A stretch of DNA of 64,000 bases, from IMG/VR virus record IMGVR_UViG_3300033141_003854, positions 52-64,051 of that record. One strand, written 5' to 3'. The position numbers were made by a program, and so were the translations under genes. Each line of letters opens with the position of its first letter. Positions within the stretch are counted from its first letter, which is position 1. The notes beneath the pieces are model-generated. The model was not told the DNA's origin, ran no database searches, and worked only from the letters and a program-made list of their open reading frames with translations. Positions 28,982 to 60,021 of this stretch are shown in pieces. Source of the DNA: a virus. Lineage: Duplodnaviria > Caudoviricetes.

Positions 28982-30868
28982 TTATGCCACTGCCAGAAGT
29001 CCGTATGCTTCTAGCTTAGCGAGTAGATCATTAAATTTTGTGGTTATGTCCGCAAGTGTGCCATCAGCGTCAGCAATGCCTGACGCCTGCACAACCGGCG
29101 TAGCGTTGTAAAAGCCAAGTTTCTGATTAGTTGCCGTGCCGATCTTTGTACCCGTGGTGGTGTCCAGCACAAAATCGCGTCCGTTGGCCGCAATCGCTAA
29201 TTGCACTGTCCCGCCGCTATTCTGGAATTCAACCAGGTTTACCGTCTGCGTGGCGTTGGCCTGAACAATGAATTGCTGGTCGTCGGCTGTGCCTACAACG
29301 TGGAGTTTGCCGTTTGCCGATGTTCCTCCGATGACGACGTTGCCAGTGCTTGTTATCCTCATCGCTTCTGTTCGTGCGGGGCTAAAAATTATTGGTTTAT
29401 TTTCACCTATTCCACCTGAACCGCTCGTGCTAAATAAAAGACCTGCTGCTCGGTATGCTTCAATCGTAAAATAACCATCATTGCTATATACAGTCCCCTG
29501 GAAAAATTGGTCATTAGTACCGAATACACTCGCAACTTGCAGAGTAAAATCTTGTCCTGACATAACAAAATTAAATCTAGCACCATCTCTATCACTGCTG
29601 GGATGGGTTAAATCAATTGTCGTATAATATCCATTGGCAATAGCAGTTGCATTAGAACCACCAGCAATTAGTCCTCTAACATCTAGCTTTTCCCTAGCCG
29701 ATGCCGTCCCAATGGCGACGTTGCCGGTGCTTTGTATAACCATGTGCTGAGCGGCTGTATATGCATCTGTCATCGTTCCAAATGCTATACCTCCTGGAGA
29801 ACCCGCAACTCCTATATATATAACCTTTTCATCAACACCAGCATCTGTGTCTTCAACCAATATCTTTGGGTTAGTGCTTGCTAAATGTAGAAGCCGTTGT
29901 GGACTTGTAGTACCGATGCCTACTTTACATCCCGTGATTTCAAGATAATTATTAGTATCATCAAATGTTAACAACGGCCCGGCAGCTTGCCCTATTGTTC
30001 CTCCATCTGCCATAACGATATTTCCCCCATCCATTGTTAAATCACCAGTCATTGTATCGCCATCTCTATTTACAAAGATATTTGTAAATGCGGAGCTTTC
30101 AACTCTCAGGGCGATACGACTATCATATTCGCCTTCCATTGATATTGTTACTGTTGGGTCGCTTCCCCCGCTGGTTACATTGGCATAGATTTTCAGCACT
30201 ACACGGTCAGTTGGATCAAATATAATATCCGTAGCCTGGCTTGAAGATAAAACATACTGCAAGCGAGAAAGAGTAAGATCGTCACTTAGCTCACTTGTCA
30301 TTAGCTCAGTTTCCACGCCTCCAGTAGTTCGCTTAAATAATTTCCAGTATATATTAACTGTCTTAGTACCAGTTTTATACATGAAAATTGTGCCGACATA
30401 TACACCAAGAGTAAGCTGATCTACTCCGGGAAATCCACTCTCAGTAACAAATGACCAAAGCAGTTGATCATTTCCTGCTGATAACGATGGTGTAGTTAAT
30501 TCTGTAGTCGGATCGCTTGTTTCATCATCATACATATAATAACTACCGGTAACGTCAGATATATCGTCCGATAAAAAGAAATTCCATGTTGATGCGGCGA
30601 CTGCCATATCTACATATTGTTTCGTTGCAGCATGAAGTTTGGCCGTTGGATCACTTTCTAATAATACAGCAGCAAAAGATGGACTTGATCCTGTGCCAAC
30701 ATCTTGATCAAACCAAATCCAATTAGTGCCATCATGAAACCCAAAAGCATTATGTACAGTATCAAATGCTATTTCACCAGAAACTAGGTCTCCTAAAGCC
30801 TCTATATTTGTCTTTGTATCTTTAAAGACTGTGGTTGGAAACCCTAACTGTTTATCGTCTTTTCTCAT
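28982..30868 (-). CDS. Tail fibre / receptor-binding protein
   Basis: HAATKQYVD, GDTMTGDL, repeated GNV.IG/VGIGTTSP fibre repeats. Confidence 0.85.
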   Translation of the reverse strand: MRKDDKQLGFPTTVFKDTKTNIEALGDLVSGEIAFDTVHNAFGFHDGTNWIWFDQDVGTGSSPSFAAVLLESDPTAKLHAATKQYVDMAVAASTWNFFLSDDISDVTGSYYMYDDETSDPTTELTTPSLSAGNDQLLWSFVTESGFPGVDQLTLGVYVGTIFMYKTGTKTVNIYWKLFKRTTGGVETELMTSELSDDLTLSRLQYVLSSSQATDIIFDPTDRVVLKIYANVTSGGSDPTVTISMEGEYDSRIALRVESSAFTNIFVNRDGDTMTGDLTMDGGNIVMADGGTIGQAAGPLLTFDDTNNYLEITGCKVGIGTTSPQRLLHLASTNPKILVEDTDAGVDEKVIYIGVAGSPGGIAFGTMTDAYTAAQHMVIQSTGNVAIGTASAREKLDVRGLIAGGSNATAIANGYYTTIDLTHPSSDRDGARFNFVMSGQDFTLQVASVFGTNDQFFQGTVYSNDGYFTIEAYRAAGLLFSTSGSGGIGENKPIIFSPARTEAMRITSTGNVVIGGTSANGKLHVVGTADDQQFIVQANATQTVNLVEFQNSGGTVQLAIAANGRDFVLDTTTGTKIGTATNQKLGFYNATPVVQASGIADADGTLADITTKFNDLLAKLEAYGLLAVA

Positions 30869-30872
30869 AATA

Positions 30873-33674
30873 CTATTCCTCTAACCAATGTAATAAAGTA
30901 GTAGATGCACCCCAAGATGCACTAGATTCAACAAAAAATCCCACTTCATCTGCGCTTATAAAATCTGTACTTAATTCAGTATAAATTATTTCCCAATTTT
31001 GACCATCCACTGACCAATAATATTCTCGGTTTGTTCCATCATCTTTTATTTTCATCCATAATCCATGAATAACCAGTTCTGGAATTACAGATTGCATAGT
31101 AGAATTAAAAGATGTGGGACTATCATATCTTTGAATTTTTATTTCACTCGCACTATCCCCAAAAGTAAATAAAGCCAGCTTTCCAGAAGAACTTTCTCTC
31201 CATATCATTCCTACTTTTTGGTAATTTTCTTTAAACATTCTTGGGAGCATGAAAGATATTATGGAATAGGGAGTAGATGGAGCAGATTTTTTTAGAATTC
31301 TAAGATTACCTCCCCCGCCTGAAGGACTGTTTAAATATATTCCTCCTCCAGTTTCAACCGCAGTTCCGCTGCCTTGATTAATCCAAGTAAAGTCATTAAG
31401 ACTTGGAGAACTAAATGGGAAGATTGGCCCCCAAGGTATCCAATTATTTCCATCATCTCTTTCTATAACAAATCCATCATGCGGAAAAAATACATCTCCA
31501 TTATTGCTAGATATTGGTCTATTTGCATAGTCATCAGAATATGTTTTATTTCCATTCCCCCCACTCCCAACCGCAATTCCTTCAACAGAAGTGGCGATAA
31601 CCACTCTCAAATCTTTTGCATCTGTAGCTACAGAGTCTATATCCACCGTAATTACATCGTTTTCAGCCAAGTCTGTTATATCAGGAGTTCCAGACTTGGC
31701 TACCCCATCTGCGTCATCATAAGCCAGTTGAGGTCGGTTAGCTTGTGTAGTAAATATTGTAGTTCCATTTTTGTTTATATCTACTATGGTAGTTCCAGTA
31801 ACTCCAGGATCATCACAATAGATATACACTGATTCAATAGTAGCAGTTCCAATACTTACAAAATGGGCGACTTCAGATGCCACTACCAATGTCCCATCGA
31901 TTTCTATTTGGTAGCTTGGTGTAAGTAAAGATGCCGCAGACGTAAATTCAATTCCAGTTTCATCAGATTTTACTGCTAAAAATTGACCACTAGCCCCAGA
32001 ATAAGTTGTAGGAGTATCATCTAAATCAAGAAAAGCAAGCCCAGAAATGGGCGCAAGATCAAATTCAGTATCATCATCAGATTTAAATTTTAATGTTTGA
32101 GTGCCGCCAATATCAACCAGATATAAAGCGCCTTTATTAGTGGACGGAGTTCCTACTGAGCCGGTAGGAACTTCATCAAGTGTCATCACGCCATTAAGTT
32201 CAAATTCCGTTTCTGGAGTGACAACCCCCAACCCAAGGTCACTAGCTGTAATTGTACCTGTTGCATGAAAATCACCAGATACTGCTGCTTTATCTGTATC
32301 CCAATAAGCTACAACAGGTGTTGCTGTTGAACCTGTATGGGTAGCATATAGTTCCCAATATGTGCCTCTAGCAGAAGGCGACCAGGCTTCTCTGGCTTTA
32401 GCTCTTAGCCATGCCTCGCCAACAAAATTTGAACCGTCATAACCTACTGCGGATAACCACACAATATCCTGGTCTTTAGTTAAAGCCGTGGGGCTGGCTT
32501 CAGTACCTCCGGCGGCGTAGCCAGCTAAACTAACCAGGCCACCATAAGAAACAAAAGTAAGACCAGACGAACCACCATCTTTTATACCGACAAATTTTGC
32601 GGCTGTTGCAAATGGTAGAGAATTACCTCCAACAAATAAAATATCGTTAGTATCATCATAAAAGAAATTAGCATTATCCTCATCAATAGACCCATCAGCA
32701 TTTCCAAATAAAACACTACCAGTAATATATGTCCCCACTGCCCCGCCTGCTGCTGTGCCAGATACAATTGTTGCATTACCACTATTATATACTTCAAAGC
32801 CATCACCGACAAAATTCAAATACGGCTGGTTAGGCAGACCTGAACCATCATCCTGAATAATATGTCCAAACGTTCCTGTTGGAATAAAACCATCACCAAT
32901 TATCCAGGGACGTAAATCATACAAATTACTCCAGGTAACTATTGACGTACCAGAAACCAGCATTACGCCAGCAAGGGGAATACCAGAAGTTTCCGGCAAT
33001 CCTGGCACATAGTTAATTACCTGACTTATGCCCGTCATAGACGGATCAAAATAATCATCGCCAGGCGTTAGCTGAGGATTACCATCATCATCTAACCAGA
33101 CCAATACCATTCTAGCATTGCTACCAGTAGGTTTGTAATCTACAATGCTTGAAGTACCAGTACCACCTGCATAATACCAAACAGAATTCCGATAATAAAC
33201 AGAAGGCTCAATAATTACATTTCCTGCGCCACTTGAACCTGATGGAATAGCAGCCAGAGGCATCATCTGTCTACCCCATACCCACACAGGATCACCACCA
33301 GGGGCATCAGGATCAAAAGAGTGTTGTGCGCCATGCCTAGGCAAATAAGAAGATGTACCCCAATTTTGATACCGCCCTAAATCTCTCCCTTTAATTACAT
33401 ATCTATTATTTTCCCTATATACTAATACAGGCAATCCATAAACGGGAGAAACTTGCTCATTATAGGCTTGAATTAGCTCACTAAGATCGTCCCTGAGACG
33501 TACATAAACATAACCTTCTCTATTAGGAACTTCTACTAATTTCTGCCCTCCAAGTTTAATGCCAAGTATCCCAGGAACAAGTAAAATCTCGTCCTGTTTA
33601 GTCAGATTTATTTTTTGAATTGATTTTCTAAATTTATGCTGTCCAATTGGCATAATGCTAATCTCCACAATCAC
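30873..33674 (-). CDS. Tail fibre / baseplate-associated protein, multidomain
   Basis: G/S/T-rich, FLDLDDTP.TY.G repeat unit, C-terminal lectin-like beta domain; position after hub. Confidence 0.8.
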   Translation of the reverse strand: MIVEISIMPIGQHKFRKSIQKINLTKQDEILLVPGILGIKLGGQKLVEVPNREGYVYVRLRDDLSELIQAYNEQVSPVYGLPVLVYRENNRYVIKGRDLGRYQNWGTSSYLPRHGAQHSFDPDAPGGDPVWVWGRQMMPLAAIPSGSSGAGNVIIEPSVYYRNSVWYYAGGTGTSSIVDYKPTGSNARMVLVWLDDDGNPQLTPGDDYFDPSMTGISQVINYVPGLPETSGIPLAGVMLVSGTSIVTWSNLYDLRPWIIGDGFIPTGTFGHIIQDDGSGLPNQPYLNFVGDGFEVYNSGNATIVSGTAAGGAVGTYITGSVLFGNADGSIDEDNANFFYDDTNDILFVGGNSLPFATAAKFVGIKDGGSSGLTFVSYGGLVSLAGYAAGGTEASPTALTKDQDIVWLSAVGYDGSNFVGEAWLRAKAREAWSPSARGTYWELYATHTGSTATPVVAYWDTDKAAVSGDFHATGTITASDLGLGVVTPETEFELNGVMTLDEVPTGSVGTPSTNKGALYLVDIGGTQTLKFKSDDDTEFDLAPISGLAFLDLDDTPTTYSGASGQFLAVKSDETGIEFTSAASLLTPSYQIEIDGTLVVASEVAHFVSIGTATIESVYIYCDDPGVTGTTIVDINKNGTTIFTTQANRPQLAYDDADGVAKSGTPDITDLAENDVITVDIDSVATDAKDLRVVIATSVEGIAVGSGGNGNKTYSDDYANRPISSNNGDVFFPHDGFVIERDDGNNWIPWGPIFPFSSPSLNDFTWINQGSGTAVETGGGIYLNSPSGGGGNLRILKKSAPSTPYSIISFMLPRMFKENYQKVGMIWRESSSGKLALFTFGDSASEIKIQRYDSPTSFNSTMQSVIPELVIHGLWMKIKDDGTNREYYWSVDGQNWEIIYTELSTDFISADEVGFFVESSASWGASTTLLHWLEE

Positions 33675-35247
33675 TTGGAGGTGTTAATAAATAAAAATCT
33701 GTTTGATACGCGCCAGAATCGTTTTCGGACATTACATGCATAATGGCCTTCCCACAAATGATGGACGTTCCCACATAACGAGTAAACCAATAAGAAAATG
33801 GAATATTTCCGCCCGGCCAGTTTATAGGAATAGATACTGATTCTTCGTTTCCTTCTTCTAAAGACACTCCTAACAAAGAAGATGCCTGTGCAACCCAAAA
33901 TCTTGAATTGACCTCATCAATCGAACCCCAAAATACTGGAGTAGCTGATCCAGTATGTAGAGATTTTGGAAAGCCCAAGCCAAGAGGAACCCAATCTGGA
34001 AGACGGTATAGTTGATAATAATCAACACCTGCTTCGGTTCTAAGTTTCCAAATAAACGCATAAGCCTTTTGATCTCCCTGACGCACTCTTGGGAGATAAA
34101 AAGATGAAACTGCGGTGCTATACATAATCCCATCTGATAATGTAACATATTTCAAATAAAATGGGCCAGTGGTATTTTCATCTGCATGAAAGAAATATGC
34201 TATATCTGTTGTTCTATCAATAACTGGCTGAGTATTATACATTCCGGGCGTAGAACCATCTACGGTTTCCACAATATTATCTGATATTAAAACCGTTTTG
34301 TCAGCACTATTTATGACTGCCATTGGATAAGGACAAACATTTACAGACGAAGTCAAACTACCAAAATTGGAGACAAAATTTGTTACTATCCAATCTTTAG
34401 AAATATTTACATTGGAAGAATACCAAAGAATTGGGCTGCTGGTTACTTCTGCATACTGAACATCTGAAACAGTACCAGTATCTAGATCATACCAAGTTAC
34501 TTGAATTAGTGTTTCATAGCTGGCAGTATAAAACATTACCCCAAAAACAATGTAGTTATAGTCGTTATAAGAATGATGAACAGCAAATAAATGTGACAAA
34601 CGACTATATGATTTTCCATTGTATATAATATCCCCACTCTCGCTGACAACCGCCTCATAGGTTTCATCGCAAAAATTTAATTTTATAAGTATTGAATCAT
34701 CAAACGCCCCCGGCTCGTGTCCAAACGCATAGACGGTTTCATTACTTAGTATAACCGCAAAATCTAAAGCAAAATTAGATGCTATTATAGATGCATCTTC
34801 TTGCCCATCTATAAAGGATATTCTGGAAAAACGTGTGTTTCCATCTCCAAATGTTTGATACCAACAAAAAAATAGATGATCATACGTTATTCCAAAATCA
34901 GTATCAAGACCCGACCAAGAAGTATTAAATGAATGAATTAATGTTGGGGTAAGATAAGATGGAAAAGGATCACGGAAAGTAACGGGAGATTCAGATGGAA
35001 ATTGATTTACTAAAACTCTAAGAAAACTACTTTCATCTCCAGTTGTCGAACTGCGAACCAGCGGCATAAGCTGAATGTTTCCTCTTCCTGACACATCAAA
35101 CTTATACCCCTTTACCATAATATCTGCCCGCCTAACACTTTTAGTAGACTGTTTTACTGACAACATTGTATTTTTAGCGGTTATATGAACTTTGTTACCG
35201 TCAGCGTCATAATTAAATTCTAGCAAGCTCATACTGTTCCCGTACAC
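33658..35247 (-). CDS. Minor tail protein (beta-rich)
   Basis: Position between hub and fibres. Confidence 0.65.
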   Translation of the reverse strand: MYGNSMSLLEFNYDADGNKVHITAKNTMLSVKQSTKSVRRADIMVKGYKFDVSGRGNIQLMPLVRSSTTGDESSFLRVLVNQFPSESPVTFRDPFPSYLTPTLIHSFNTSWSGLDTDFGITYDHLFFCWYQTFGDGNTRFSRISFIDGQEDASIIASNFALDFAVILSNETVYAFGHEPGAFDDSILIKLNFCDETYEAVVSESGDIIYNGKSYSRLSHLFAVHHSYNDYNYIVFGVMFYTASYETLIQVTWYDLDTGTVSDVQYAEVTSSPILWYSSNVNISKDWIVTNFVSNFGSLTSSVNVCPYPMAVINSADKTVLISDNIVETVDGSTPGMYNTQPVIDRTTDIAYFFHADENTTGPFYLKYVTLSDGIMYSTAVSSFYLPRVRQGDQKAYAFIWKLRTEAGVDYYQLYRLPDWVPLGLGFPKSLHTGSATPVFWGSIDEVNSRFWVAQASSLLGVSLEEGNEESVSIPINWPGGNIPFSYWFTRYVGTSIICGKAIMHVMSENDSGAYQTDFYLLTPPSDCGD

Positions 35248-37262
35248 CCATCATCAATAAAGTTCAGACTTTGCGCCCGACAGACAAAAAGTCCATTATG
35301 GTAAATATCAATTCCAAGGCCAAAAGTCGGAATTGGCGGAATTGTGATTGGTGGAATGCCAAAACTTCCACCACCATCATCTTCTGTACTGTCTGGAGGC
35401 ACATCAGGAATGACAATTGTAGCACCAGCAAATCCCTGAGTAACCTCATGCAAGGTAACTCTGGGCAAAAGAGCCTGAGCAATTGAATTGTATGTCCAAT
35501 CAATACTTTGAATAACAAAAGCCTTGTCAGTAAAAACAATACCACGAGCAGTATCTTCGGAAGTGGTTGTAATCTTTATAATCTCTTGAGGCGCAATATC
35601 TAAGTTACCAAAATTTGCCCGCAATCTCATTTCTACGTTTGGAAATCTCGCATTCTCCCAAGCCAACAAGTTCCCAACCATAGTATTCAATTCATCTTGA
35701 TCTTCTAAAGCAATGCCTTGTATGCGCTCTACTGTACCTCTATATTTAGGTGCAACACTTGGTGCGGACGCCAAAAACGCGCCAAAAGTATTTAAGCCTG
35801 GATCATAAGATATGCCCCCCATCTCAATAAAAGATGTTTCATCAATAAATTTTTCATCTATAACAGGTTCGTCAATCCAATCTCTTTTGGTAACGCTAAG
35901 AGTAGTAGATAAAGCTGTACTAGCATTATCTATTACAGACGCATCTTGTTCAGCCCAAAGTTTACCTTGTTTATCTGAAACAATTTTGCCAAATCTCGCC
36001 CCAGACATCAATTCATTTATTGCGTCATATATAGAAGTTCTGTCGGCATCAAAATACTGTATGTTTCTATCATCATCGGTATATTCAAAATCACAACACA
36101 ATAACACTGTGCTATGCCAGGCCAGATAATGATAAATGGCTCGACTGATTGTCATGTCTTTTAGTTCAAACCAAGTGGAAGGACTGTTCTTGCTTTCAAC
36201 CGACACAGAAAAACATTCAGATTCTTGCATTATTCCAGTAGGAGAAATAACATCAAATTCTACTGAATTATCTCGGTAGTTGTGCCGAATTGTGCCGCCA
36301 GAAATATATCCAACAAATTTAATGGATTGTCTGTTAATAGCGTTTCCGCCAATTGATTGTTTTGTGTCTCCATACCAATCTTCGCCAAAAATAACTACCA
36401 ATGCGCCATCTATAATAGCGGTTTTGTCTACGTTTTCTCTTACTCTAATGCTTACAGCATAACCACCACTATCCCTTGATCCCGACCACTGTAATATTTC
36501 CCAATTCAATATCGGTACATTACTTCCCTGCCCCGGCCGGTCATAAATTGAAACATATCTAATAGATTTATCTTCTCTATTAGACGCAGAAGTTACAGTA
36601 AGAAATGTTCTGTAATGGCCGGGAGTGTCATAAGTTACAAACCCAGGAGTATGGGACGTTGAACCTGTCGGAGTTCCGCCTTCAAATATCCAGCTATATG
36701 TAAGATTATCTCCAAGCACATTTGATGTGCCTGAAGCCGTCCAATATACTTGAGCTTGACCAGTAGCGGGATCAAGAAAACCGGCATAGTTTGAACCCAT
36801 ACAGATAAATGTGCCCAGAATAGAGTTCTGATCTGTATAGGGAATATCGTACATCTTATAAAAAATTACATTTTCTTCGTCTGCGGGGTCTTGAATAATC
36901 CTTGGAAATACGGGGATTATCTCAGTAAAGCCCAATACCGTAACATAATCATCTTGTTCCCAATTTATGTGGTCACTTTCTACAAAACGAAGGGCTGTAC
37001 CTGTTGCGCTTCTTGCCCAAGTTCTTCCTTTGCTATCATCGCCAATCGCAGAACCAACAAGCGTAACTAAAAATAAATCATTACCAATATCACTTGCCGT
37101 ACCGGAAGCATCATAGTATGAAATGGTTTGTTGGTCGGCATTGTAACTTCCGGTAACACGACATGAAAACAAAGTCTCAGGCTGAAATATTGACAAATAC
37201 AGCTTAGTTCTTTGGGGATAGGTATTTAGAAGTGTAGTCTCTGCACTAGTCGGTACTGTCAT
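35229..37262 (-). CDS. Baseplate hub / Tal-like protein with PKD-like domain
   Basis: LTYSWIFEGGTP...YDTPGHY..LTVT PKD pattern; follows Dit-sized gene. Confidence 0.7.
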   Translation of the reverse strand: MTVPTSAETTLLNTYPQRTKLYLSIFQPETLFSCRVTGSYNADQQTISYYDASGTASDIGNDLFLVTLVGSAIGDDSKGRTWARSATGTALRFVESDHINWEQDDYVTVLGFTEIIPVFPRIIQDPADEENVIFYKMYDIPYTDQNSILGTFICMGSNYAGFLDPATGQAQVYWTASGTSNVLGDNLTYSWIFEGGTPTGSTSHTPGFVTYDTPGHYRTFLTVTSASNREDKSIRYVSIYDRPGQGSNVPILNWEILQWSGSRDSGGYAVSIRVRENVDKTAIIDGALVVIFGEDWYGDTKQSIGGNAINRQSIKFVGYISGGTIRHNYRDNSVEFDVISPTGIMQESECFSVSVESKNSPSTWFELKDMTISRAIYHYLAWHSTVLLCCDFEYTDDDRNIQYFDADRTSIYDAINELMSGARFGKIVSDKQGKLWAEQDASVIDNASTALSTTLSVTKRDWIDEPVIDEKFIDETSFIEMGGISYDPGLNTFGAFLASAPSVAPKYRGTVERIQGIALEDQDELNTMVGNLLAWENARFPNVEMRLRANFGNLDIAPQEIIKITTTSEDTARGIVFTDKAFVIQSIDWTYNSIAQALLPRVTLHEVTQGFAGATIVIPDVPPDSTEDDGGGSFGIPPITIPPIPTFGLGIDIYHNGLFVCRAQSLNFIDDGCTGTV

Positions 37263-50183: not shown

Positions 50184-50340
50184 TCAGCCCATCTACTTTT
50201 TTCTTAATCTCTTCTTCATTTTCTGATGCAATACCAACCTGCTCAATGCTGATCAGTTTGGGCTGTTCAATTCTGCGAAATACCGTATATTTTCCATCTA
50301 AAGTTTTTAGATAATAATATGTAATTGTCTCTTTCGCCAT
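50161..50340 (-). CDS. Hypothetical protein
   Basis: GGAG RBS before MAKETIT. Confidence 0.5.
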   Translation of the reverse strand: MAKETITYYYLKTLDGKYTVFRRIEQPKLISIEQVGIASENEEEIKKKVDGLNENVQRL

Positions 50341-50341
50341 C

Positions 50342-51474: not shown

Positions 51475-51495
51475 CGCTTTTCTTTCTATTATAAA

Positions 51496-51789
51496 CTATG
51501 ACACTAAATCATATGCCAAATCAAATTCAAACCAGCCACATTCATCACAATCTTTTATTACATAAAAATTGCCAGTAGTTCCACAACAAGTATCGCGTTC
51601 CCAAAAAGATATTTTGGGATAGTCTTTTAATCTAATGTTGGCCGTAGCTCCACATTTTCGACAAATCACGGGCAACGAATCTGTCCAAAAATCTTTCTTG
51701 TCTAATAAAAACCGAGACAGTTTTCCTAGCCTATTATCAAATCTTTTTTTATGTTTTAATAATTTATAGAACTCATTTCTTGTAACCAT
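51496..51789 (-). CDS. Zn-ribbon hypothetical protein
   Basis: CRKCG...CDECGW; GGAG RBS. Confidence 0.65.
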   Translation of the reverse strand: MVTRNEFYKLLKHKKRFDNRLGKLSRFLLDKKDFWTDSLPVICRKCGATANIRLKDYPKISFWERDTCCGTTGNFYVIKDCDECGWFEFDLAYDLVS

Positions 51790-51835
51790 TTTTATCTCCC
51801 AATGATTGCGAACGTAAAGTTTTTGAAGTCTTTGC

Positions 51836-52750: not shown

Positions 52751-53958
52751 TACGTTCCCTTCTGTTTTATAAATTTGTGTATAACATCTAGCATATAAGA
52801 CAGATCATCCGGAAAAATTCCTGGCCAACAACCAACCCAGAAAGCGTTTTCCATCAGATAATCACTTCCTTTTGTGTTGCTAAAAATTTCATGATAGAAA
52901 GTTGACGCTACTGGCTGGCGTGTAATGTTTCCAGCAAAAATTTCTCTGGTGGCAATTCCCTTCGCCTCAAGATATGTAACAAATTCCTGCTTTGTAAACT
53001 TACTGGACTTGACTATGATGGGAAAGCCAAAGGGATAAACTGCATCATCACGTTTAATTATCTGAATGTGATCTGAAAACTGAGATAAACTTTCGTATAA
53101 GGCATCATAATTATTTGCTCTGCGATGTAATAAATTATCAATTTTATTCATTTGTGCAGAACCAATTGCGGCTTGCATATCAGTCATTTTCAAATTATAC
53201 CCTAATCGGGTAAATGTATATTTATGATCCCAACCTTTGGGTAAATCAGGCCACTTCCAATCAAATCTTTTACCACAAGTATTGTCTTGGCCAGGCAAAC
53301 ACCAACAATCCCGCCCCCAATCCCGATAACTATTTATAATCTTTAATAATTTTCCATCATTTGTAAGAACTGCCCCACCTTCTCCTGTGGTTATGAAATG
53401 TGCAGGAAAGAAGCTGAGAGTAGAAATATGACCAAGTGTGCCTAATTTCTGCCCGTTTATTTTACTACCAAAGGCATCAGCACAATCCTCAATAAAGAAT
53501 TTCCCTAAACGGTCACATTCTTCCCTTACTGCTTCAGCATCAAAAGGAAATCCTAAAGTATGAGCTTGAATAATTCCGGCCACTTCTTCCTGGCGTAATA
53601 CAGTAATGATTGTATCAATGTCAGGATTTAGTGTGGACGGATCATTATCTATAAACAATGGAACATAACCATATTGAACAAGTGGAGCAATGGTGGTTGG
53701 AAAGCAGGTTGCAGACGTAACTACCATGTGACCGTTGCGATATTTCTCAGCTATAGCTGCAATTGCCAATAAATTTGCGGATGAACCAGAATTGCACAAA
53801 CTTACATGACGAACTCCAAAGAAATTTTTTAGCTTTATTGCAAATGATTTGCAATATCTGCCTTCCGTGAACCATCTACCATTAGCGACATCTACCAAAT
53901 TTCTAACTTCGTCACCGTCAATAACTGCGCCAGAGGCAGGAATAAATTTTCTAACCAT
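52750..53958 (-). CDS. rfbH: NDP-4-keto-6-deoxyglucose 3-dehydrase (E1/DdhC type)
   Basis: NSGSSANL, SFFPAH (His in place of the aminotransferase Lys), WGRDCWC..DNTC...DHKY 2Fe-2S ligands. Confidence 0.93.
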   Translation of the reverse strand: MVRKFIPASGAVIDGDEVRNLVDVANGRWFTEGRYCKSFAIKLKNFFGVRHVSLCNSGSSANLLAIAAIAEKYRNGHMVVTSATCFPTTIAPLVQYGYVPLFIDNDPSTLNPDIDTIITVLRQEEVAGIIQAHTLGFPFDAEAVREECDRLGKFFIEDCADAFGSKINGQKLGTLGHISTLSFFPAHFITTGEGGAVLTNDGKLLKIINSYRDWGRDCWCLPGQDNTCGKRFDWKWPDLPKGWDHKYTFTRLGYNLKMTDMQAAIGSAQMNKIDNLLHRRANNYDALYESLSQFSDHIQIIKRDDAVYPFGFPIIVKSSKFTKQEFVTYLEAKGIATREIFAGNITRQPVASTFYHEIFSNTKGSDYLMENAFWVGCWPGIFPDDLSYMLDVIHKFIKQKGT

Positions 53959-54136
53959 TTATCCTCTCAATTTCATTACTGTCAGCAGCAATTTCAAAAT
54001 AAATAGTTTTGTAATAAGGAAAATACGAACCACATAACGCACAGTAAGGATTATACTCCTCGTTCAATAAACCACAGAAACTACATTGCCATACAATAAC
54101 GGTTGCTTTATTTATCATCTTCAAATGCCTGCTCAA
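53951..54136 (-). CDS. Small Zn-ribbon protein
   Basis: WQCSFCG...CALCG. Confidence 0.55.
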   Translation of the reverse strand: MSRHLKMINKATVIVWQCSFCGLLNEEYNPYCALCGSYFPYYKTIYFEIAADSNEIERING

Positions 54137-55028
54137 CTAATTTTTGCTTATACCATTCTGGTAATCCAGTCTTAATACCTCGCGATATTTGAGGCCAGAA
54201 ATGCGCAAAGAGTATATCTTTTATTTCATCTTCACATTCTTCACGAGTATCCTTTATGACCTCTTTAATAAGATTACCAATATCACGTGGCGATTGTTCT
54301 AATTCTCCTCGCTCCCGCAAATGTTGAACTGCTTTTTCCCAACGAGCATTAGTTCGATAGCGACTAACTATAGTCTGTAAAACATCTTTCTTAGATGGAT
54401 TAGATTTTTTCCATTCATTAGCATGAGTTTCCTTAAATTTTTCCGAAACATACTTCCCAATAGCTATCTTCTTATCTCTGGTAAATAGTTTGTAATTTTT
54501 AACCACTACTCCTTCAATCATTGAGCCACCAAGTAACGGCTTTGATTTCTCCAACAATTCATTGAAACTATTAATATTATCTACAATACCACAATAAAGC
54601 ATGGGCACACATTCAAGCCCAAGTCGTTCAGCTTCAATCTTCTTATCTGAATAATTCATGTATTCTTCAATGCCAATCATTACGTCAAATAATATCAAAT
54701 TATGTTTAGGAACACGCTCATACGCCAAAGAGTTATGTTTAGGTTTCCGAAGATACTCACACCGATAAACATAACCAGGGGTTAACGAGGGCTTCAATTT
54801 TTGAGCCGCTTCAACAGCCTCAATAAACATTTTTTCTGGAGCATTAATAACAATTTGTTTGCCCTTACTACGACAACATAATTCACCATCAATAATTGCC
54901 ATACTAAATTGGCTGCCATCTATTTTTTCTTCAACAATTACTTCATCATCAAAGATGCCAGCTATTGCTTTATGTCCAATTGCATATACCTTTGGATAGC
55001 TATTTATTCTGCTCATTTTCATCACCAA
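54108..55028 (-). CDS. ATP-dependent RNA ligase (Rnl2-like)
   Basis: Motif I EKIDGS, III CEY, IIIa LFDV, IV EGVVVK, V KYVS, helical C-terminal domain. Confidence 0.85.
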   Translation of the reverse strand: MVMKMSRINSYPKVYAIGHKAIAGIFDDEVIVEEKIDGSQFSMAIIDGELCCRSKGKQIVINAPEKMFIEAVEAAQKLKPSLTPGYVYRCEYLRKPKHNSLAYERVPKHNLILFDVMIGIEEYMNYSDKKIEAERLGLECVPMLYCGIVDNINSFNELLEKSKPLLGGSMIEGVVVKNYKLFTRDKKIAIGKYVSEKFKETHANEWKKSNPSKKDVLQTIVSRYRTNARWEKAVQHLRERGELEQSPRDIGNLIKEVIKDTREECEDEIKDILFAHFWPQISRGIKTGLPEWYKQKLVEQAFEDDK

Positions 55029-55731
55029 AAACCTTAGCCCATTTTTTATGCCATTTTCTCAGCCATTCTTTTCTGTTTCGTTCTGTGCGTTTACGTCTTT
55101 TCTCATCATAAGTATAAGACATTGCGCCCATGTGTTCAACCTTTCTGCCAGGCAAAGCACGTAGTTTAATGCCAAGATAATGCGCCATTGTAGATAAGTC
55201 TACATCTTCATAGTCACTAGGCTCATACAATATATCAAAACCACCCAAAGTGTTCCAGACTTTGCTGGTACAAGCTAACAGCCAGCCTTCGCAATAAGAC
55301 ACAATAGCTGGTTTACCTTTATAAGTTATTTCATTCCAGCCCGCCTTCCAGTCTATGATGCATCCACCAATCAGCACATTTTCATTGTCAGAGATTATCT
55401 GTTTTATGTCAGATATAAAGTCGCCATAAATAATTACATCATTGGAAAGAAACACCAAAATATCGGCATTGTATTTCATCGCAATTTTTGCGCCTAAATT
55501 CATTGAGCCGATAAAACCTTTATTCTCCTTGTTTCTTTTATACCTGATCTTGTGATGGTTGATCTGTTTTTGCCAAAAGGCTACGCCAGTTTCACAGTCT
55601 GAATCAGGAGATGCATCATTGATTAAGATAATTTCAAGCTCATGATTGCGGCAATGAGTATATAATTCCCATAACCGTTTATGGGTCAAGTCCCAATGAT
55701 TATAATAAGGCAGTATTACAGCAGTTTTCAT
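55000..55731 (-). CDS. Glycosyltransferase family 2
   Basis: VILPYYN, INDASPD, NKGFIGSMNLG, FLSND, YEDVD. Confidence 0.92.
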   Translation of the reverse strand: MKTAVILPYYNHWDLTHKRLWELYTHCRNHELEIILINDASPDSDCETGVAFWQKQINHHKIRYKRNKENKGFIGSMNLGAKIAMKYNADILVFLSNDVIIYGDFISDIKQIISDNENVLIGGCIIDWKAGWNEITYKGKPAIVSYCEGWLLACTSKVWNTLGGFDILYEPSDYEDVDLSTMAHYLGIKLRALPGRKVEHMGAMSYTYDEKRRKRTERNRKEWLRKWHKKWAKVFGDENEQNK

Positions 55732-55734
55732 TGC

Positions 55735-56586
55735 TTATTCAGGAAGATCAACACTTGCGTCTACCCTTCGCTTCAAGTCTTTTAAACCATCAAATACAGA
55801 ATAGACCGGAATACCCAAACTCTGAGCATATTCAGTCCTCAATCCTGCTCTTAATGGTCTGACTGCTTTGCCAGGAATGGCTATCGTTGGAATTACTAAT
55901 GTGGGATCAAAGCCAAACATATTTGCAATAGATAAAGCAAACTCGTATCGAGTAAGAACTCCTTTACCTGCGATGTGAATAATCGGAGTGTAGAACCCAT
56001 CATCCATCATTTTTGCTAGTTTTAATAATCCATCCACTAAATGTGGAATATAGGTAGGCGTTCCGCTAATTCTCTTGGTTACTTTCACTTCTGTGCCTTC
56101 ATCAAGCTGGCGAAGTAATTTAGTTACAAAATTGGGTGTTTTCTCATCATAAAGAACGGTTGTACGCACAATTATACTCTTGTTATAATCCAAACGATTT
56201 TTCTCTAAGTCAATTAGTAAATCTTCCCCCATAGACTTTGATTTTCCATAGACGCCTAAAGGATTCTTTGCAGCATTTTCTTTGTACGGCCCGGATACCC
56301 CATCAAACACATAATCTGTACTGATATGAATCATTCTCCCAGAAAATTCATAATTTAAGAGGGCCAAACCACTAATATTTACTGATGATACCTTACTGAT
56401 ATTGGAATTAATCTCAGCCAAATCTACATCTGTATATGCTGCACAATTAATTATAAGATCAAGGTTAAGGCTATCTAATTCATATCCCAGGCCACTACTA
56501 AGAATGTTGGATTTAATGGGGATACAGCCTCGTCTGACCAGTTCAGAACCTAATCTTCCATTTGGGCCGGTTACACCAATTCTCAT
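55735..56586 (-). CDS. rmlD: RmlD-like NDP-sugar 4-ketoreductase
   Basis: TGPNGRLG, NCAAYTDVD, ISTDYVFDG, YGKSK. Confidence 0.92.
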   Translation of the reverse strand: MRIGVTGPNGRLGSELVRRGCIPIKSNILSSGLGYELDSLNLDLIINCAAYTDVDLAEINSNISKVSSVNISGLALLNYEFSGRMIHISTDYVFDGVSGPYKENAAKNPLGVYGKSKSMGEDLLIDLEKNRLDYNKSIIVRTTVLYDEKTPNFVTKLLRQLDEGTEVKVTKRISGTPTYIPHLVDGLLKLAKMMDDGFYTPIIHIAGKGVLTRYEFALSIANMFGFDPTLVIPTIAIPGKAVRPLRAGLRTEYAQSLGIPVYSVFDGLKDLKRRVDASVDLPE

Positions 56587-56783
56587 GTTTTCCTCATCTC
56601 TTTCAATTCATTTAGTAATCCAATAGCATAATTACGATCAATGGTTGCCACTAGCTCATAATCACTATGTTTGACTTTGATATGCATATATTCACTGCCA
56701 GTCTGTAAAAACCATTCCAATATCTTTTCTGGATTTTTGGGATACCAGGTTTCAAAAATCTCAGCAGTTATTTCCTGCGTCAT
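56583..56783 (-). CDS. Hypothetical protein
   Basis: Coupled between the two reductases. Confidence 0.5.
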   Translation of the reverse strand: MTQEITAEIFETWYPKNPEKILEWFLQTGSEYMHIKVKHSDYELVATIDRNYAIGLLNELKEMRKT

Positions 56784-57603
56784 ATTCAGCCTTCAGCAAT
56801 TCTATTCCATCTTTGTAGGAATACAGAGGAAAACCCATTTTCCTGGCTAATTTAGTTACTAGCCCGCCAGAATATGGCCTTGGCGTAAGATCACTAAGTT
56901 TATATAGTCTTGGCACAACTTTGGATGCATCAATGTCTAATTCAATGCAAATATCTTGCCAGAACCGGTAGTGAGAAACTGTTTCAGTACCAGCAATGTT
57001 TATAATATCATAAGGAAAGGTGCTTATGATGCTCAGTAAATAAAGTAATGCTTCAGAAAAATGCCGGGCGTGCAGATATGATCTTTTGATTACATCACTT
57101 ATTACCACAACACCTTTACTTTGAATTCTGTTCAAGGTTGGTTTAATAGTATCCAAAGTAAAAACTTTGCTAGATCGCACAACTACTGTTCTGCCAGGCC
57201 ACATTGTTGCTATGGTTTCCCCCATATACTTTGAATTGCCATAAGCATTTATGGGGCGTGCTCTGGATGATTCTTTGTATGGGCCTCTACCCCCGCTGAA
57301 TACATGATCGCTGGAAACATAAATAAAGAATTTACCATTTTCAGAAAACTTTTCAATCAGATTTCCCGTGCCTCGCACATTTATTTGAAACGCGTGTAAA
57401 GGGTCATCTTCACAGACATCCACATCGGTTTCAGCGGCTAGGTGTACCAACGTATCTATTTTCCCCAACTTAATCGTTTCAGGCTTAGTTATATCAAAAT
57501 CAAGAGGCACAACATCAAGACCGATCTCCAACGCAAGCTGAAGAAGCTCTTTTCCAATAGTTCCTCTATGTCCAGTTATTCCAATTTTCATTTTCATCTC
57601 CAT
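56761..57603 (-). CDS. rmlD: Second RmlD-like NDP-sugar reductase
   Basis: TGHRGTIG, HLAAETDVD, SSDHVF, YGNSK. Confidence 0.9.
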   Translation of the reverse strand: MEMKMKIGITGHRGTIGKELLQLALEIGLDVVPLDFDITKPETIKLGKIDTLVHLAAETDVDVCEDDPLHAFQINVRGTGNLIEKFSENGKFFIYVSSDHVFSGGRGPYKESSRARPINAYGNSKYMGETIATMWPGRTVVVRSSKVFTLDTIKPTLNRIQSKGVVVISDVIKRSYLHARHFSEALLYLLSIISTFPYDIINIAGTETVSHYRFWQDICIELDIDASKVVPRLYKLSDLTPRPYSGGLVTKLARKMGFPLYSYKDGIELLKAEYDAGNNC

Positions 57604-58761: not shown

Positions 58762-58778
58762 ATAATTATCCTTAATTT

Positions 58779-58824: not shown

Positions 58825-58836
58825 GTCAGTAAAATA

Positions 58837-60021
58837 TTATCCAATCGCCGTGCAGGTCGAAGCGATCCTGCCGGTAAACTGGCTAGTATATTTTCCTTGA
58901 GCGCAGCACGCCTTTATCACAAGCGCAGTAGCCGCCCAAACCTCAAAGGAAATGGCAGTACAGCCCGGTACAAGATCGTTCAGGCTCAAAGGAATTTGAG
59001 TCAGCCGGTAAACCAGTGGTTCACCATTATGCGTCATGCGTAATGCCCACAGATCAGCCTGGAAGTTCCCGCCTCCGATGTTAGTTCGGCGGAAGTTATT
59101 GTCAGCTACAACCACCAAGCGACCCACACCAGTATTGACGAAACCAGCGAAGTTAAAGCCTGGGGTAATGCGGTTGCCATCGGCAAAGTTCACTACCTGA
59201 GAACCAGCAAAGCCAAGCTGGAAGTAGCCGCTCAGCATTTCCTGAATTGCCTGTGGATGCCCAAAAACATGCGTAGGCTTTGCACAACTTTCACTCACGA
59301 AGCGGTCAAAGGCAGCCGCAGAGAATGAACCAGATGCGCTATTGTCGTTGGTGTGCATAGTGCAGGACATATTTGTAGCCCAATTCTCGATACCATCAAA
59401 TTCAAGAGAATTGGTATTTGAATCACCCTGAACAAGCAGACGATCCCACCCGTTCATCACCAAGACCATTGCGGTGCGGACTTCTTTTTCCTTCACGCCC
59501 AGTACAACTTCACGTTGGAAAGATGCAAGATCAGAGCCGCCGGGTACGCCTTCGCCAGTAGGAAAGCCACCAACTAAAGTGTTGATGCCATGCCAGCCTG
59601 CGCGGGCAACTGCGGTAGAGTGCATGATGTCACGAATAGATAATGTTTTCTTTGCGCCGATGTTTTTAATATTGACGGTTGTATTGTCACCATCATGCGT
59701 ATATTCTTCTGGACATTCACCATCTGCAAATGCAATGTAGCTAGAGCCAGAAGTAAACTCTAACGAAGTCATTTCCCGCCAGGTGTACGAGTTCAAAGAA
59801 GTACCAATTTCGGGAATCGCCTGGAGCAAGGTAACTTCCTCGCACATAGCGATAACTTCAGTAGGATCAAGCGGGGTTGGATATTGTGCGGTAAAATCCG
59901 CAGGTTGAGAATAAGGTTGAGGAAGAATAACCGGATCAGTCGTCTTGGAAACAAACGCTTTTTCCTTCGCAGCGCCTTCACCAAGATTTAGAACCGGCTC
60001 TCCCGTAATAGGATTAGGCAT
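58837..60021 (-). CDS. Major capsid protein
   Basis: 394 aa after protease/scaffold; LVQGD....LEFDGI motif; GGAGG RBS; own promoter and 3' hairpin. Confidence 0.9.
   Translation of the reverse strand: MPNPITGEPVLNLGEGAAKEKAFVSKTTDPVILPQPYSQPADFTAQYPTPLDPTEVIAMCEEVTLLQAIPEIGTSLNSYTWREMTSLEFTSGSSYIAFADGECPEEYTHDGDNTTVNIKNIGAKKTLSIRDIMHSTAVARAGWHGINTLVGGFPTGEGVPGGSDLASFQREVVLGVKEKEVRTAMVLVMNGWDRLLVQGDSNTNSLEFDGIENWATNMSCTMHTNDNSASGSFSAAAFDRFVSESCAKPTHVFGHPQAIQEMLSGYFQLGFAGSQVVNFADGNRITPGFNFAGFVNTGVGRLVVVADNNFRRTNIGGGNFQADLWALRMTHNGEPLVYRLTQIPLSLNDLVPGCTAISFEVWAATALVIKACCAQGKYTSQFTGRIASTCTAIG

What the first reader, a model, noticed from the sequence alone, without database searches (positions are those of the whole stretch)
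28982..60021. [S/T]-G-[S/T] tripeptide marks surface-exposed virion proteins: candidate glycosylation sequon
Hand count of [ST]G[ST]: capsid 2, adaptor 4 (in 226 aa), stopper 1, tail tube 2, Dit 1, hub 7, 529-aa tail protein 2, 933-aa fibre 13, 628-aa fibre 5. That is about 37 in about 3840 aa. I found none in about 5180 aa of terminase, portal, protease/scaffold, tape measure, PolA, DnaB, UvrD, RecA, phosphoesterase and DNA methylase. The internal virion parts (portal, tape measure, protease) lack it. Established: Ser-Gly is the attachment dipeptide for sulfated glycosaminoglycans in animal proteoglycans. Inference: this is the acceptor motif of the island's priming GT, giving a proteoglycan-like sulfated phage coat. 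Caveat: tail proteins are generally rich in G, S and T.
Basis: partly seen in the sequence, partly recalled or inferred. Interest (0 to 1): 0.88.

Follow-up and report, generated by a model that had tools for sequence, protein, structure and literature searches.

The report
Ser/Thr-Gly-Ser/Thr motif on phage coat
An uncultured phage family that always carries a large sugar-adding gene island also carries far too many Ser/Thr-Gly-Ser/Thr tripeptides on its outward-facing particle proteins, which may mark where sugars are attached, though this is not proven.

Summary
The counts are right: 37 [ST]G[ST] in 3841 aa of nine virion proteins against 10.6 expected (0 of 2000 shuffles reach 37). The 66 other ORFs hold 4 against 9.6 expected. 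One slip: the RecA-like protein has a site.

The signal is at protein level and runs through the clade. In 21 related viral contigs the exposed tail proteins hold 492 against 125.8 expected (3.9x). Tape measure, chaperone, terminator, neck and island enzymes hold 25 against 28.9.

Exposed proteins of nine unrelated phages give 1.58x (range 0.7-2.1). Only the doubly flanked motif is enriched, and it ranks first in an unbiased tripeptide scan. Capsid, adaptor, tube and the small distal protein keep their sites while S and T interchange.

Every clade member seen far enough carries an island of soluble glycosyltransferases and sugar-modifying enzymes between the capsid and adaptor genes.

My best reading, at about 0.4, is an acceptor or recognition motif for phage-encoded, transferase-by-transferase O-glycosylation of the virion.

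Against it:
- One distant lineage without the island still shows about 2.5x in its hub and fibre.
- Some sites sit in deeply conserved structural blocks.
- No glycan has been observed.

The "proteoglycan-like, sulfated" part is not supported.

The parts
58837..60021 (-). Major capsid protein (394 aa). SGS sites at aa 91 and 230.
   Evidence: Weak PHROG major-head hit, E 1e-3. ESM feature search gives SU10 major capsid clusters at 0.98. Site 91 is kept in 14 of 14 and site 230 in 12 of 14 IMG/VR capsids. Both are kept in 120 of 120 best database homologs. The AlphaFold model failed, pLDDT 28.5.
44884..57603 (-). Glycosylation island. In map order from 44884: GT2, sulfotransferase, GT2, GT4, GT4-like, methyltransferase, 119-aa ORF, GT2, GT1-like (PF13524), RfbH-like 3-dehydrase, RNA-ligase-like, GT2, and two RmlD-like reductase/epimerases.
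   Evidence: Pfam and NCBIfam (RfbH 470 bits against a cutoff of 423). No 19-residue window reaches Kyte-Doolittle 1.6 in any island enzyme. Homologs lie downstream of the capsid gene in 12 of 17 capsid loci. They lie upstream of the adaptor gene wherever the flank reached far enough.
43943..44623 (-). Head-to-tail adaptor (226 aa). TGT sites at aa 25, 58, 97 and 146.
   Evidence: AlphaFold pLDDT 78, pTM 0.72. Foldseek matches neck/adaptor chains of phage 812, DT57C, T5, GTA and Mycofy1, E 1e-6 to 3e-4. Sites kept in 9, 15, 1 and 11 of 17 homologs. Site 58 lies in a predicted strand, not a turn.
43288..43665 (-). SGS at aa 28.
   Evidence: Site kept as [ST]G[ST] in 15 of 17 homologs with S/T interchange. 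Weak DUF6093 hit.
41512..42153 (-). Tail tube protein (213 aa). TGS at aa 9, SGT at aa 53.
   Evidence: PHROG major tail protein, E 3e-4. Sites kept in 16 of 19 and 19 of 19 homologs. Site 53 sits in the block FYWGLSGT..YPV. That block is kept in distant representatives of 18-27% identity.
37259..37609 (-). TGT at aa 66.
   Evidence: Site kept in 18 of 18 homologs (TGT 15, SGS 1, TGS 1, SGT 1). No family hit.
35229..37262 (-). Tail hub/tip protein (677 aa) with 7 sites. PKD-like domain at aa 166-232.
   Evidence: Counts. Weak PKD hit. In 23 aligned hubs, 159 sites fall on 71 columns, 47 of them singletons. Sites 177 and 199 are kept in 15 and 13 of 22.
33658..35247 (-). 529-aa tail protein with 2 sites.
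   Evidence: No family hit.
30873..33674 (-). 933-aa fibre with 13 sites.
   Evidence: Homologs in 21 loci hold 216 against 49.8 expected. The C-terminal 200 aa resemble proteins of mycobacteriophages and a Caulobacter phage.
28982..30868 (-). 628-aa tail/fibre protein with 5 sites.
   Evidence: No family hit.
37606..40569 (-). Tape measure protein (987 aa), an internal control with 0 sites.
   Evidence: 20 homologs hold 16 against 14.6 expected.
62503..63978 (-). Portal protein (491 aa), an internal control with 0 sites.
   Evidence: Weak Portal_Mu hit. 7 homologs hold 4 against 4.5 expected.

Best explanation
[ST]-G-[ST] is a selected protein-level motif on the exposed virion proteins of a large uncultured phage clade. 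Its extended form is roughly [P/V/I]-[S/T]-G-[S/T]-[Y/S/F/A] in an uncharged context. I read it as the acceptor or recognition site for O-glycosylation by the phage's own soluble glycosyltransferases.

The proposed mechanism, all inferred: late in infection the island is expressed together with the structural genes. One transferase puts a first sugar on a Ser/Thr hydroxyl next to the glycine of folded or assembling capsid, adaptor, tube, hub and fibre proteins in the cytoplasm. The other transferases extend it one sugar at a time. The building blocks are modified by the RfbH-like dehydrase, the two RmlD-like reductases and the methyltransferase, and in this phage the sulfotransferase.

Shown here: the motif statistics, their clade-wide reproduction, the inside/outside contrast, the site conservation, and the island's content and position.

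Inferred: that the two are linked, which residue is modified, and which enzyme primes.
For: 1. Window: 37 against 10.6 expected, with 0 of 2000 shuffles reaching 37.
2. Clade, 21 loci with GC 37-65%: exposed tail proteins 492/125.8 = 3.9x. 19 of 21 loci are at or above 2.9x. Tape measure, chaperone, terminator, neck and island enzymes give 25/28.9 = 0.86x. Portal gives 4/4.5, the scaffold-like protein 1/5.2, and island enzymes 9/9.4.
3. Nine unrelated phages give 85/53.8 = 1.58x, range 0.71-2.10. Small exposed proteins of five different folds give 10/2.05 in the window against 33/23.9 in the background.
4. Only the doubly flanked form is enriched: [ST]G[^ST] 0.81-0.97 and [^ST]G[ST] 0.97-1.05.
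5. In a scan of all tripeptides with S and T merged, the motif ranks 1 of 158 in the window (z 8.1) and 1 of 3889 in the clade (z 32.6). It ranks 6 of 2672 in the background (z 4.3).
6. S/T class is kept at motif flanks at 0.70 against 0.46 for other S/T (Mann-Whitney p 1.7e-5). The motif glycine is kept no better than other glycines, 0.66 against 0.66.
7. Conserved sites interchange S and T.
8. In the hub the sites turn over: 71 columns, 47 singletons.
9. Codons at the sites are diverse, so this is not a DNA motif.
10. The island has no transmembrane enzymes, and no flippase, polymerase, oligosaccharyltransferase or polyprenyl-phosphate transferase family was hit. This fits direct cytoplasmic transfer.
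11. Precedents: virion glycosylation in mycobacteriophages Che8, Corndog and Myrna, as cited in passages of PMC12363180 and PMC11256854. A proposed G-[T/S]-X recognition sequence in the Kuenenia S-layer glycoprotein, read in passages of PMC5088730.
Against: 1. Rctr41k and its relative L065 have no homolog of any island enzyme in what is sequenced. Yet their hub homologs hold 6/2.51 and 7/2.55, and their fibre homologs 7/2.71 and 6/2.76. Hub density is therefore about the same with or without the island.
2. Enrichment of 1.4-1.7x is generic to exposed phage proteins.
3. Tube site 53 lies in a longer block kept down to 18-27% identity, and hub site 199 lies in a PKD-like domain. Both look structural.
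4. Che8, cited as glycosylated, shows only 1.73x, so glycosylation need not leave such a footprint.
5. The island transferases show no similarity to Che8 gp108-110; the best E-value is 0.11.
6. G010, a distant hub relative with a DegT-like gene and a GT4-like fragment, shows no enrichment (3/2.39).
7. No clade member without the island was found, so co-occurrence cannot be separated from shared ancestry.
8. Counts across relatives are not independent events.
9. Surface exposure could not be computed, because the tools return no coordinates.
Confidence: 0.4

Rival explanations
1. The motif is a structural element with no link to the island. A glycine flanked by two small hydroxyl residues would be a favoured tight turn, bulge or packing element in beta-rich external virion proteins. 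This clade's tube, hub and fibre families would simply use it more. The island would modify something else, or only a few unrelated sites.
For: - Generic 1.58x in nine unrelated phages, where the doubly flanked form is also the enriched one.
- About 2.5x in hub and fibre homologs of the island-free Rctr41k lineage, with some sites at similar positions.
- Tube site 53 sits in a block kept in distant homologs.
- A hub site lies in a PKD-like domain.
- Hydrophobic or Pro at -1 and aromatic or small residues at +3 fit strand-turn contexts.
Against: - The typical turn and strand tripeptides that lead the background scan (VNG, S/T-V-S/T, S/T-F-S/T, DG-S/T) do not lead in the clade, where the motif is alone at z 32.6.
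- [ND]G[ST] is 1.87x in the background but only 1.09-1.23x here.
- The glycine is kept no better than other glycines, while the hydroxyl flanks are kept better.
- Adaptor site 58 lies inside a predicted strand.
- Five unrelated small folds all carry conserved sites at 4-7x.
Confidence: 0.35
2. The motif is functional but serves something other than island-driven glycosylation. Examples: another modification of Ser/Thr by a host or phage enzyme, modification by a host glycosylation system, or a role in binding host surface polymers.
For: - The inside/outside contrast and the conservation of the hydroxyl flanks point to function.
- The island-free Rctr41k lineage keeps part of the enrichment.
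- A host-type G-[T/S]-X recognition sequence has been proposed for an anammox S-layer protein. One capsid homolog is labelled as coming from a Brocadiales bin, a weak hint only.
Against: - No kinase or other candidate enzyme was identified in the window. I did not annotate every ORF.
- Periplasmic or surface host systems would not reach cytoplasmic phage proteins.
- Single-flank G[ST] is not enriched.
Confidence: 0.12
3. It is chance, composition, or hindsight in the reader's choice of motif.
For: Tail proteins are rich in G, S and T.
Against: - Global and local shuffles give z about 8.
- The motif ranks first in an unbiased scan.
- The result is reproduced in 21 loci across GC 37-65%.
- Codons are diverse.
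Confidence: 0.02

Closest known systems
Virion O-glycosylation of mycobacteriophages Che8, Corndog and Myrna (Freeman et al. 2023). I saw it only as cited in passages of PMC12363180, PMC11256854, PMC13313380 and PMC12582341. The paper itself is not held.
   Same: Phage-encoded glycosyltransferases with capsid and tail proteins as presumed targets, and no lipid-linked machinery in the phage. In Che8 the capsid protein ends in ...KTGS and holds 3 [ST]G[ST] against 0.41 expected.
   Different: The island enzymes show no detectable similarity to Che8 gp108-110; the best E-value is 0.11. Here the island is 13 kb with at least seven transferases and lies inside the structural operon. In Che8 three transferase genes lie at the genome end. 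Che8's exposed proteins as a set show only 1.73x. The acceptor sites in Che8 (C-terminal regions, as I recall) could not be read.
O-glycosylated S-layer protein Kustd1514 of Kuenenia stuttgartiensis (PMC5088730, passages read).
   Same: The authors propose G-[T/S]-X as the recognition sequence, that is, a hydroxyl residue next to glycine. Their glycan carries methylated sugars, and the island here has a methyltransferase.
   Different: That is a cellular surface protein with a host system, and the sites were not mapped to residues. Here G[ST] without a preceding S/T is not enriched (0.97-1.05). No host link is shown.
Glycosaminoglycan attachment to Ser-Gly in animal proteoglycans
   Same: A serine next to a glycine, and a sulfotransferase in this window.
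   Different: Acidic residues are depleted at -2, -1, +3 and +4. SGxG is 0.81-1.47x. Thr is preferred over Ser: TGT 4.6-5.3x against SGS 2.5-2.6x. No xylosyltransferase or polymerase family was hit. The sulfotransferase is not clade-wide.
Capsid glycosylation by virus-encoded enzymes in chloroviruses and other giant viruses (PMC9614988 and PMC7019647, search listing and abstracts only).
   Same: The virus carries its own glycosylation machinery and decorates its capsid in the cytoplasm.
   Different: Those are eukaryotic viruses with, as I recall, mainly atypical N-linked sequons. N-x-[ST] is not enriched here (0.75-0.94).

Membership tests
Phage-encoded virion glycosylation (Che8 type) | Glycosyltransferase genes are encoded by the phage. 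| tested here: met
   Pfam GT2 x4, GT4, GT4-like and GT1-like. NCBIfam hits are all below the equivalog cutoffs except RfbH.
Phage-encoded virion glycosylation (Che8 type) | The transferases are homologous to Che8 gp108-110. | tested here: not met
   blastp of the three Che8 proteins against all window proteins gives a best E-value of 0.11.
Phage-encoded virion glycosylation (Che8 type) | A glycan is covalently bound to capsid or tail proteins. | not testable with these tools
   This needs mass spectrometry or glycan staining of virions.
Proteoglycan-type Ser-Gly glycosaminoglycan attachment | Ser-Gly lies in an acidic context or as SGxG (recalled definition). | tested here: not met
   D and E are depleted by log2 -1.2 to -3.0 at -3, -2, -1, +3 and +4. 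SGxG is 4/2.7 in the window and 30/36.9 in the clade.
Proteoglycan-type Ser-Gly glycosaminoglycan attachment | A xylosyltransferase and glycosaminoglycan polymerases are present. | tested here: not met
   No such family appears among the Pfam and NCBIfam hits of the island proteins. Small ORFs of 91-119 aa have no hits or were not scanned.
Lipid-linked, oligosaccharyltransferase-dependent bacterial O-glycosylation (PglL/PglO type) | A polyprenyl-phosphate priming transferase, a flippase and a membrane oligosaccharyltransferase are present. | tested here: not met
   No such family was hit. The maximum 19-residue hydropathy of every island enzyme is below 1.6. The host could supply these parts; that was not tested.
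Bacteroidota general O-glycosylation sequon D-[ST]-[AILVMT] (recalled) | That sequon is enriched on the target proteins. | tested here: not met
   10/18.3 in the window and 181/179.0 in the clade.
N-glycosylation sequon N-x-[ST] | That sequon is enriched on the target proteins. | tested here: not met
   23/30.7 in the window and 352/375.3 in the clade.
Kuenenia-type G-[T/S]-X O-glycosylation | A Ser/Thr preceded by Gly marks the glycopeptides. | tested here: inconclusive
   Every motif site contains G-[ST]. But [^ST]G[ST] alone is not enriched, at 0.97-1.05. The enzymes of that system are unknown to me, so no enzyme comparison was possible.

The most novel reading that the evidence does not exclude
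A widespread clade of uncultured tailed phages coats every exposed part of its particle, from capsid to fibres, with a complex glycan. The glycan would contain 3,6-dideoxyhexose, be methylated, and in some members be sulfated. It would be built in the cytoplasm by the phage's own soluble transferases on a defined tripeptide sequon, [S/T]-G-[S/T]. This would be the first sequon described for phage-encoded protein glycosylation, and a glycan shield outside the actinobacteriophages.
Probability: 0.3. Interest if true: 0.85.

Novelty: new variant of a known kind. Interest (0 to 1): 0.62.

Why it matters
In what I could read, phage virion glycosylation is documented only for a few mycobacteriophages, and no acceptor motif was given. 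The capsid family here has at least 1585 database relatives, and every member seen far enough carries the sugar island. The motif therefore offers residue-level predictions that can be tested on nine proteins.

If true, glycosylated virions could be predicted from sequence. It would also bear on how environmental phages mask or tune their surfaces, for adsorption, stability, or evasion of host or grazer recognition.

If false, the finding still documents an unusually strong clade-specific tripeptide signature on exposed virion proteins that needs a structural explanation.

Tried and rejected
**A DNA-level cause.** Rejected. Codons at the 37 sites are diverse, only four 9-mers recur (at most 4 times), and the motif persists across relatives with GC 37-65%.

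**Local composition.** Rejected. Shuffling inside 30-aa blocks gives the same expectation.

**Other sequons.** N-x-[ST], D[ST][AILVMT] and SGxG are not enriched.

**Depletion of [ST]D[ST] and [ST]R[ST].** The window has 0/8.2 and 0/3.9, but the clade is only mildly depleted (0.63 and 0.70). I do not build on it.

**Searching for a clade member without the island.**
- G008 looked island-free in one marker search. It carries the island, and the contig simply breaks inside it.
- G005/L017 lacks the island after the capsid gene but has a second, unrelated head module there. It is not a clean comparator.
- Distant tube homologs P0148, P0161 and P0144 gave no locus in viral or metagenome contigs.
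- The wider hub alignment A2 was too divergent to search with.
- The genome-contig scan with A1 found no relative.
- The INPHARED phage collection has no match to the 24.5-kb stretch, capsid, tube or adaptor. The hub matches only Rctr41k.

**Structures.** The capsid model failed (pLDDT 28.5), and the profile search of solved structures found nothing. Surface exposure could not be computed because no coordinates are returned.

**Literature.**
- Searches found no paper describing an [ST]G[ST] sequon in phages or a phage sulfotransferase acting on virion glycans. One search returned 0 papers.
- Freeman et al. 2023 is not held. Its site data, and any supplements, could bear on the comparison with Che8.

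**Method caveats.**
- My gene calls in relatives come from a simple longest-ORF routine, so some starts are wrong. L008 and L010 capsids carry spurious N-terminal extensions.
- Rows dropped: L063 (same gene content as L052) and L064 (distant) from the clade pools.
- Homologs covering under 60% of the window protein were dropped.
- L003, L004, L013 and L014 were dropped as duplicates.
- Several hub loci are the same contigs as capsid loci.


Full report
**What the window is.** It is nearly a whole IMG/VR virus record of 64,051 bases with direct terminal repeats. The plus-strand left arm holds replication genes: UvrD-like helicase, primase, DnaB-like helicase, family A polymerase, RecA-like protein and an N6/N4 methylase.

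The minus-strand right arm is the late operon. Its order is terminase, portal, a 586-aa protein with a ChaB domain, capsid, three small ORFs, then a 13-kb sugar island. After the island come the adaptor, connector proteins, tube, chaperones, tape measure, a 116-aa protein, hub, and three large tail or fibre proteins.

**The observation.**
- Whole-protein shuffles expect 10.6 +/- 3.2. Shuffles inside 30-aa blocks expect 10.5 +/- 3.1. 0 of 2000 reach 37.
- The other 66 ORFs hold 4 against 9.6 expected.
It expects only 3.05, so that absence alone means little.
- Codons at the sites are diverse, so the signal is in the protein.

**Is it more than phage tail proteins usually show?** I took the exposed virion proteins (capsid, decoration, tube or sheath, baseplate or hub, fibres) of nine unrelated phages: Rctr41k, lambda, SPP1, HK97, T7, TP901-1, Bxb1, P2 and Mu.

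| Set | Observed/expected | Ratio |
|---|---|---|
| Nine phages pooled | 85/53.8 | 1.58x (range 0.71-2.10) |
| Che8 (cited as glycosylated) | 24/13.9 | 1.73x |
| Window, all nine proteins | 37/10.6 | 3.49x |
| Window, proteins under 450 aa | 10/2.05 | 4.88x |
| Background, proteins under 450 aa | 33/23.9 | 1.38x |
| Window, larger proteins | 27/8.55 | 3.16x |
| Background, larger proteins | 52/29.9 | 1.74x |

Even at a background ratio of 2.1 the Poisson probability of 37 or more is 2.6e-3. So part of the enrichment is generic and part is not.

**The clade.** Capsid relatives of 63-81% identity exist in 17 IMG/VR loci.
- 12 show island homologs downstream of the capsid gene.
- 2 end too soon to tell.
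- 1 (L011) has 8 kb of unmatched genes there.
- 2 (L013 and L017, one type) have a second head module instead.

Hub relatives exist in 23 loci. I dropped one duplicate-looking locus and one distant locus. In the remaining 21:

| Protein family | Observed/expected |
|---|---|
| Adaptor | 39/9.0 |
| 125-aa protein | 17/2.4 |
| Tube | 39/7.2 |
| 116-aa protein | 30/5.1 |
| Hub | 149/48.5 |
| Fibre | 216/49.8 |
| All exposed tail proteins | 492/125.8 = 3.9x |
| Tape measure | 16/14.6 |
| Chaperone | 1/2.8 |
| Terminator | 3/3.7 |
| Neck | 1/1.9 |
| Island enzymes | 4/5.9 |
| All internal or non-virion | 25/28.9 |

19 of 21 loci are at or above 2.9x; the other two are at 1.8 and 2.0. Portal (4/4.5), the scaffold-like protein (1/5.2), terminase (2/1.5) and island enzymes from the capsid loci (9/9.4) are also flat, while the capsid is 31/12.1.

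These loci span GC 37-65%. The counts are not independent events, because the proteins are homologous.

**Shape of the motif.**
- Only the doubly flanked form is enriched. [ST]G[^ST] is 0.97 in the window and 0.81 in the clade. [^ST]G[ST] is 1.05 and 0.97.
- Thr is preferred: TGT 4.6-5.3x against SGS 2.5-2.6x.
- Charged residues are depleted at -2, -1, +3 and +4. P, V and I are favoured at -1. Y, S, F and A are favoured at +3.
- In a scan of all tripeptides with S and T merged, the motif ranks 1 of 158 in the window (z 8.1) and 1 of 3889 in the clade (z 32.6). The next two in the clade are its own -1 extensions.
- In the background it ranks 6 of 2672 (z 4.3), behind ordinary strand and turn patterns.

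**Conservation.** Fraction of homologs that keep each site as [ST]G[ST]:

| Site | Kept |
|---|---|
| Tube 53 | 19 of 19 |
| Tube 9 | 16 of 19 |
| 116-aa protein 66 | 18 of 18 |
| 125-aa protein 28 | 15 of 17 |
| Adaptor 58 | 15 of 17 |
| Adaptor 146 | 11 of 17 |
| Capsid 91 | 14 of 14 |
| Capsid 230 | 12 of 14 |
| Both capsid sites, best database homologs | 120 of 120 |

- S and T interchange on both sides.
- S/T class is kept at motif flanks at 0.70 against 0.46 at other S/T positions (p 1.7e-5). The motif glycine is kept no better than other glycines, 0.66 against 0.66. That is not what a pure 'glycine turn' predicts.
- In the hub the sites move instead: 159 sites in 23 sequences on 71 columns, 47 of them singletons.

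**The island.**
- Pfam and NCBIfam give four GT2, one GT4 and a GT4-like neighbour, and a GT1-like protein (PF13524).
- They also give a methyltransferase, a sulfotransferase and two RmlD-like reductase/epimerases.
- One protein passes the RfbH cutoff (470 bits against 423). That is the 3-dehydrase of 3,6-dideoxyhexose synthesis rather than a plain aminotransferase.
- There is also an RNA-ligase-like protein.
- No enzyme has a transmembrane-grade hydrophobic stretch. No flippase, polymerase, oligosaccharyltransferase or polyprenyl-phosphate transferase family was hit. This fits sugar-by-sugar transfer in the cytoplasm.
- Position inside the structural operon and clade-wide retention make the virion the natural target. 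That step is inference.
- The transferases are unrelated in sequence to Che8 gp108-110.

**Labels.** The 226-aa protein folds as a head-to-tail adaptor. The capsid label rests on position, a weak PHROG hit and an ESM feature match to SU10 capsid clusters; its model failed. 'Dit' and 'stopper' have no family support here.

**What speaks against the sequon reading.** The hub has one cultured-collection relative, Rctr41k (28% identity, a partial genome of 41 kb). Its structural module is contiguous and has no homolog of any island enzyme. The same holds for its relative L065, a 10-kb contig.
- Their hub homologs hold 6/2.51 and 7/2.55, and their fibre homologs 7/2.71 and 6/2.76. Some sites lie at positions similar to the window's.
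- Hub density is thus about equal with and without the island, and fibre density is about half.
It rests on one lineage, whose missing genome part could hold transferases, as Che8's genome end does.
- Tube site 53 is part of a longer block kept in representatives of 18-27% identity, and hub site 199 lies in a PKD-like domain. Some sites are probably structural.
- I found no island-free member of the clade itself.

**Comparison with what is known.**
- Virion glycosylation by phage-encoded transferases is reported for Che8, Corndog and Myrna. I saw this only in citing papers.
- A G-[T/S]-X recognition sequence was proposed for the O-glycosylated S-layer protein of Kuenenia (passages read).
- The proteoglycan analogy fails on flanking charge, on SGxG, on the Thr preference and on enzyme families.
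- The sulfotransferase keeps a PKSGT segment near its N-terminus, which I recall as the phosphosulfate-binding loop. It is seen in few relatives, so sulfation would be an accessory.
- My searches found no paper giving an [ST]G[ST] sequon for phages.

**Verdict.**
- About 0.4: the motif is the acceptor or recognition site of island-driven O-glycosylation.
- About 0.35: it is a structural signature of these protein families.
- About 0.12: it serves another function.

The finding is a new variant of a known kind, and it is directly testable by co-expression and mass spectrometry.

Noticed in passing
L017 (= G005) 11372-21158 and L024; also L013: Two independent contigs carry this clade's terminase, portal, scaffold-like and capsid genes. 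These are followed not by the sugar island but by a second, unrelated head module: Terminase_6C, SPP1-type portal, Mu F-like and Phage_capsid_4. A different tail follows. I could not tell whether this is a real mosaic genome, a tandem element or a recurrent misassembly.
   Followed up: partly
window 52750-53958 (-): Pfam files this protein as a DegT/DnrJ/EryC1 aminotransferase. It passes NCBIfam's RfbH model (470 bits, cutoff 423). That points to CDP-6-deoxy-hexulose 3-dehydrase and a 3,6-dideoxyhexose in the glycan.
   Followed up: partly
window 54108-55028 (-): An RNA-ligase-family (nucleotidyltransferase) protein sits in the middle of the sugar island (Pfam E 3e-15). Its role there is unexplained.
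   Followed up: no
window 60099-61859 (-): The 586-aa protein between the portal and capsid genes starts with a ChaB domain (Pfam E 1e-13). It is the most motif-poor head protein: 1/5.2 over 10 homologs.
   Followed up: no
window 58837-60021 (-): The capsid family is very large and unnamed. 1585 proteins scored E <= 0.001 among 8000 candidates. All of the best 120 are 66-86% identical, and none has a Pfam domain. Source labels include bins called Brocadiales, Thermoplasmata and Hodarchaeales, which are probably binning noise.
   Followed up: partly
window 30873-31500 (-), fibre residues about 720-933: The C-terminal 200 aa of the 933-aa fibre resemble hypothetical proteins of 25 Mycobacterium phage records (such as Redno2 and Thibault), a tail protein of Caulobacter phage CcrPW, and a 595-kb uncultured phage. 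This looks like a shared receptor-binding or lectin-like module.
   Followed up: no
L048 1439-2971; L074 5975-9061 (G008); L056 2429-2908: Some relatives have extra genes between the island and the adaptor gene that are also motif-rich. A 510-aa protein with a prealbumin-like (SpaA) domain holds 13/3.4. A 1028-aa protein holds 8/3.74, and a 159-aa protein 3/0.76. They may be head or neck fibres.
   Followed up: partly
window 11732-13686: A 1.9-kb stretch has no ORF over 116 aa and a raised GC of 0.47. It lies between the leftward gene 10754-11731 and the rightward early genes. It may be a regulatory or origin region.
   Followed up: no
window 22896-22969 (+): A marginal Rfam tRNA match (30.9 bits, gathering score 29) that ARAGORN does not call.
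   Followed up: no
window, nine virion proteins: [ST]D[ST] is 0 against 8.2 expected and [ST]R[ST] 0 against 3.9. In the clade the depletion is mild (0.63 and 0.70), so much of this is probably chance.
   Followed up: yes
L075/L076 (G010): A distant hub relative (24% identity) has a 629-aa protein with a GT4-like fragment and a DegT-like gene near its head genes. It shows no motif enrichment: hub 3/2.39, and every other ORF but one has none.
   Followed up: partly
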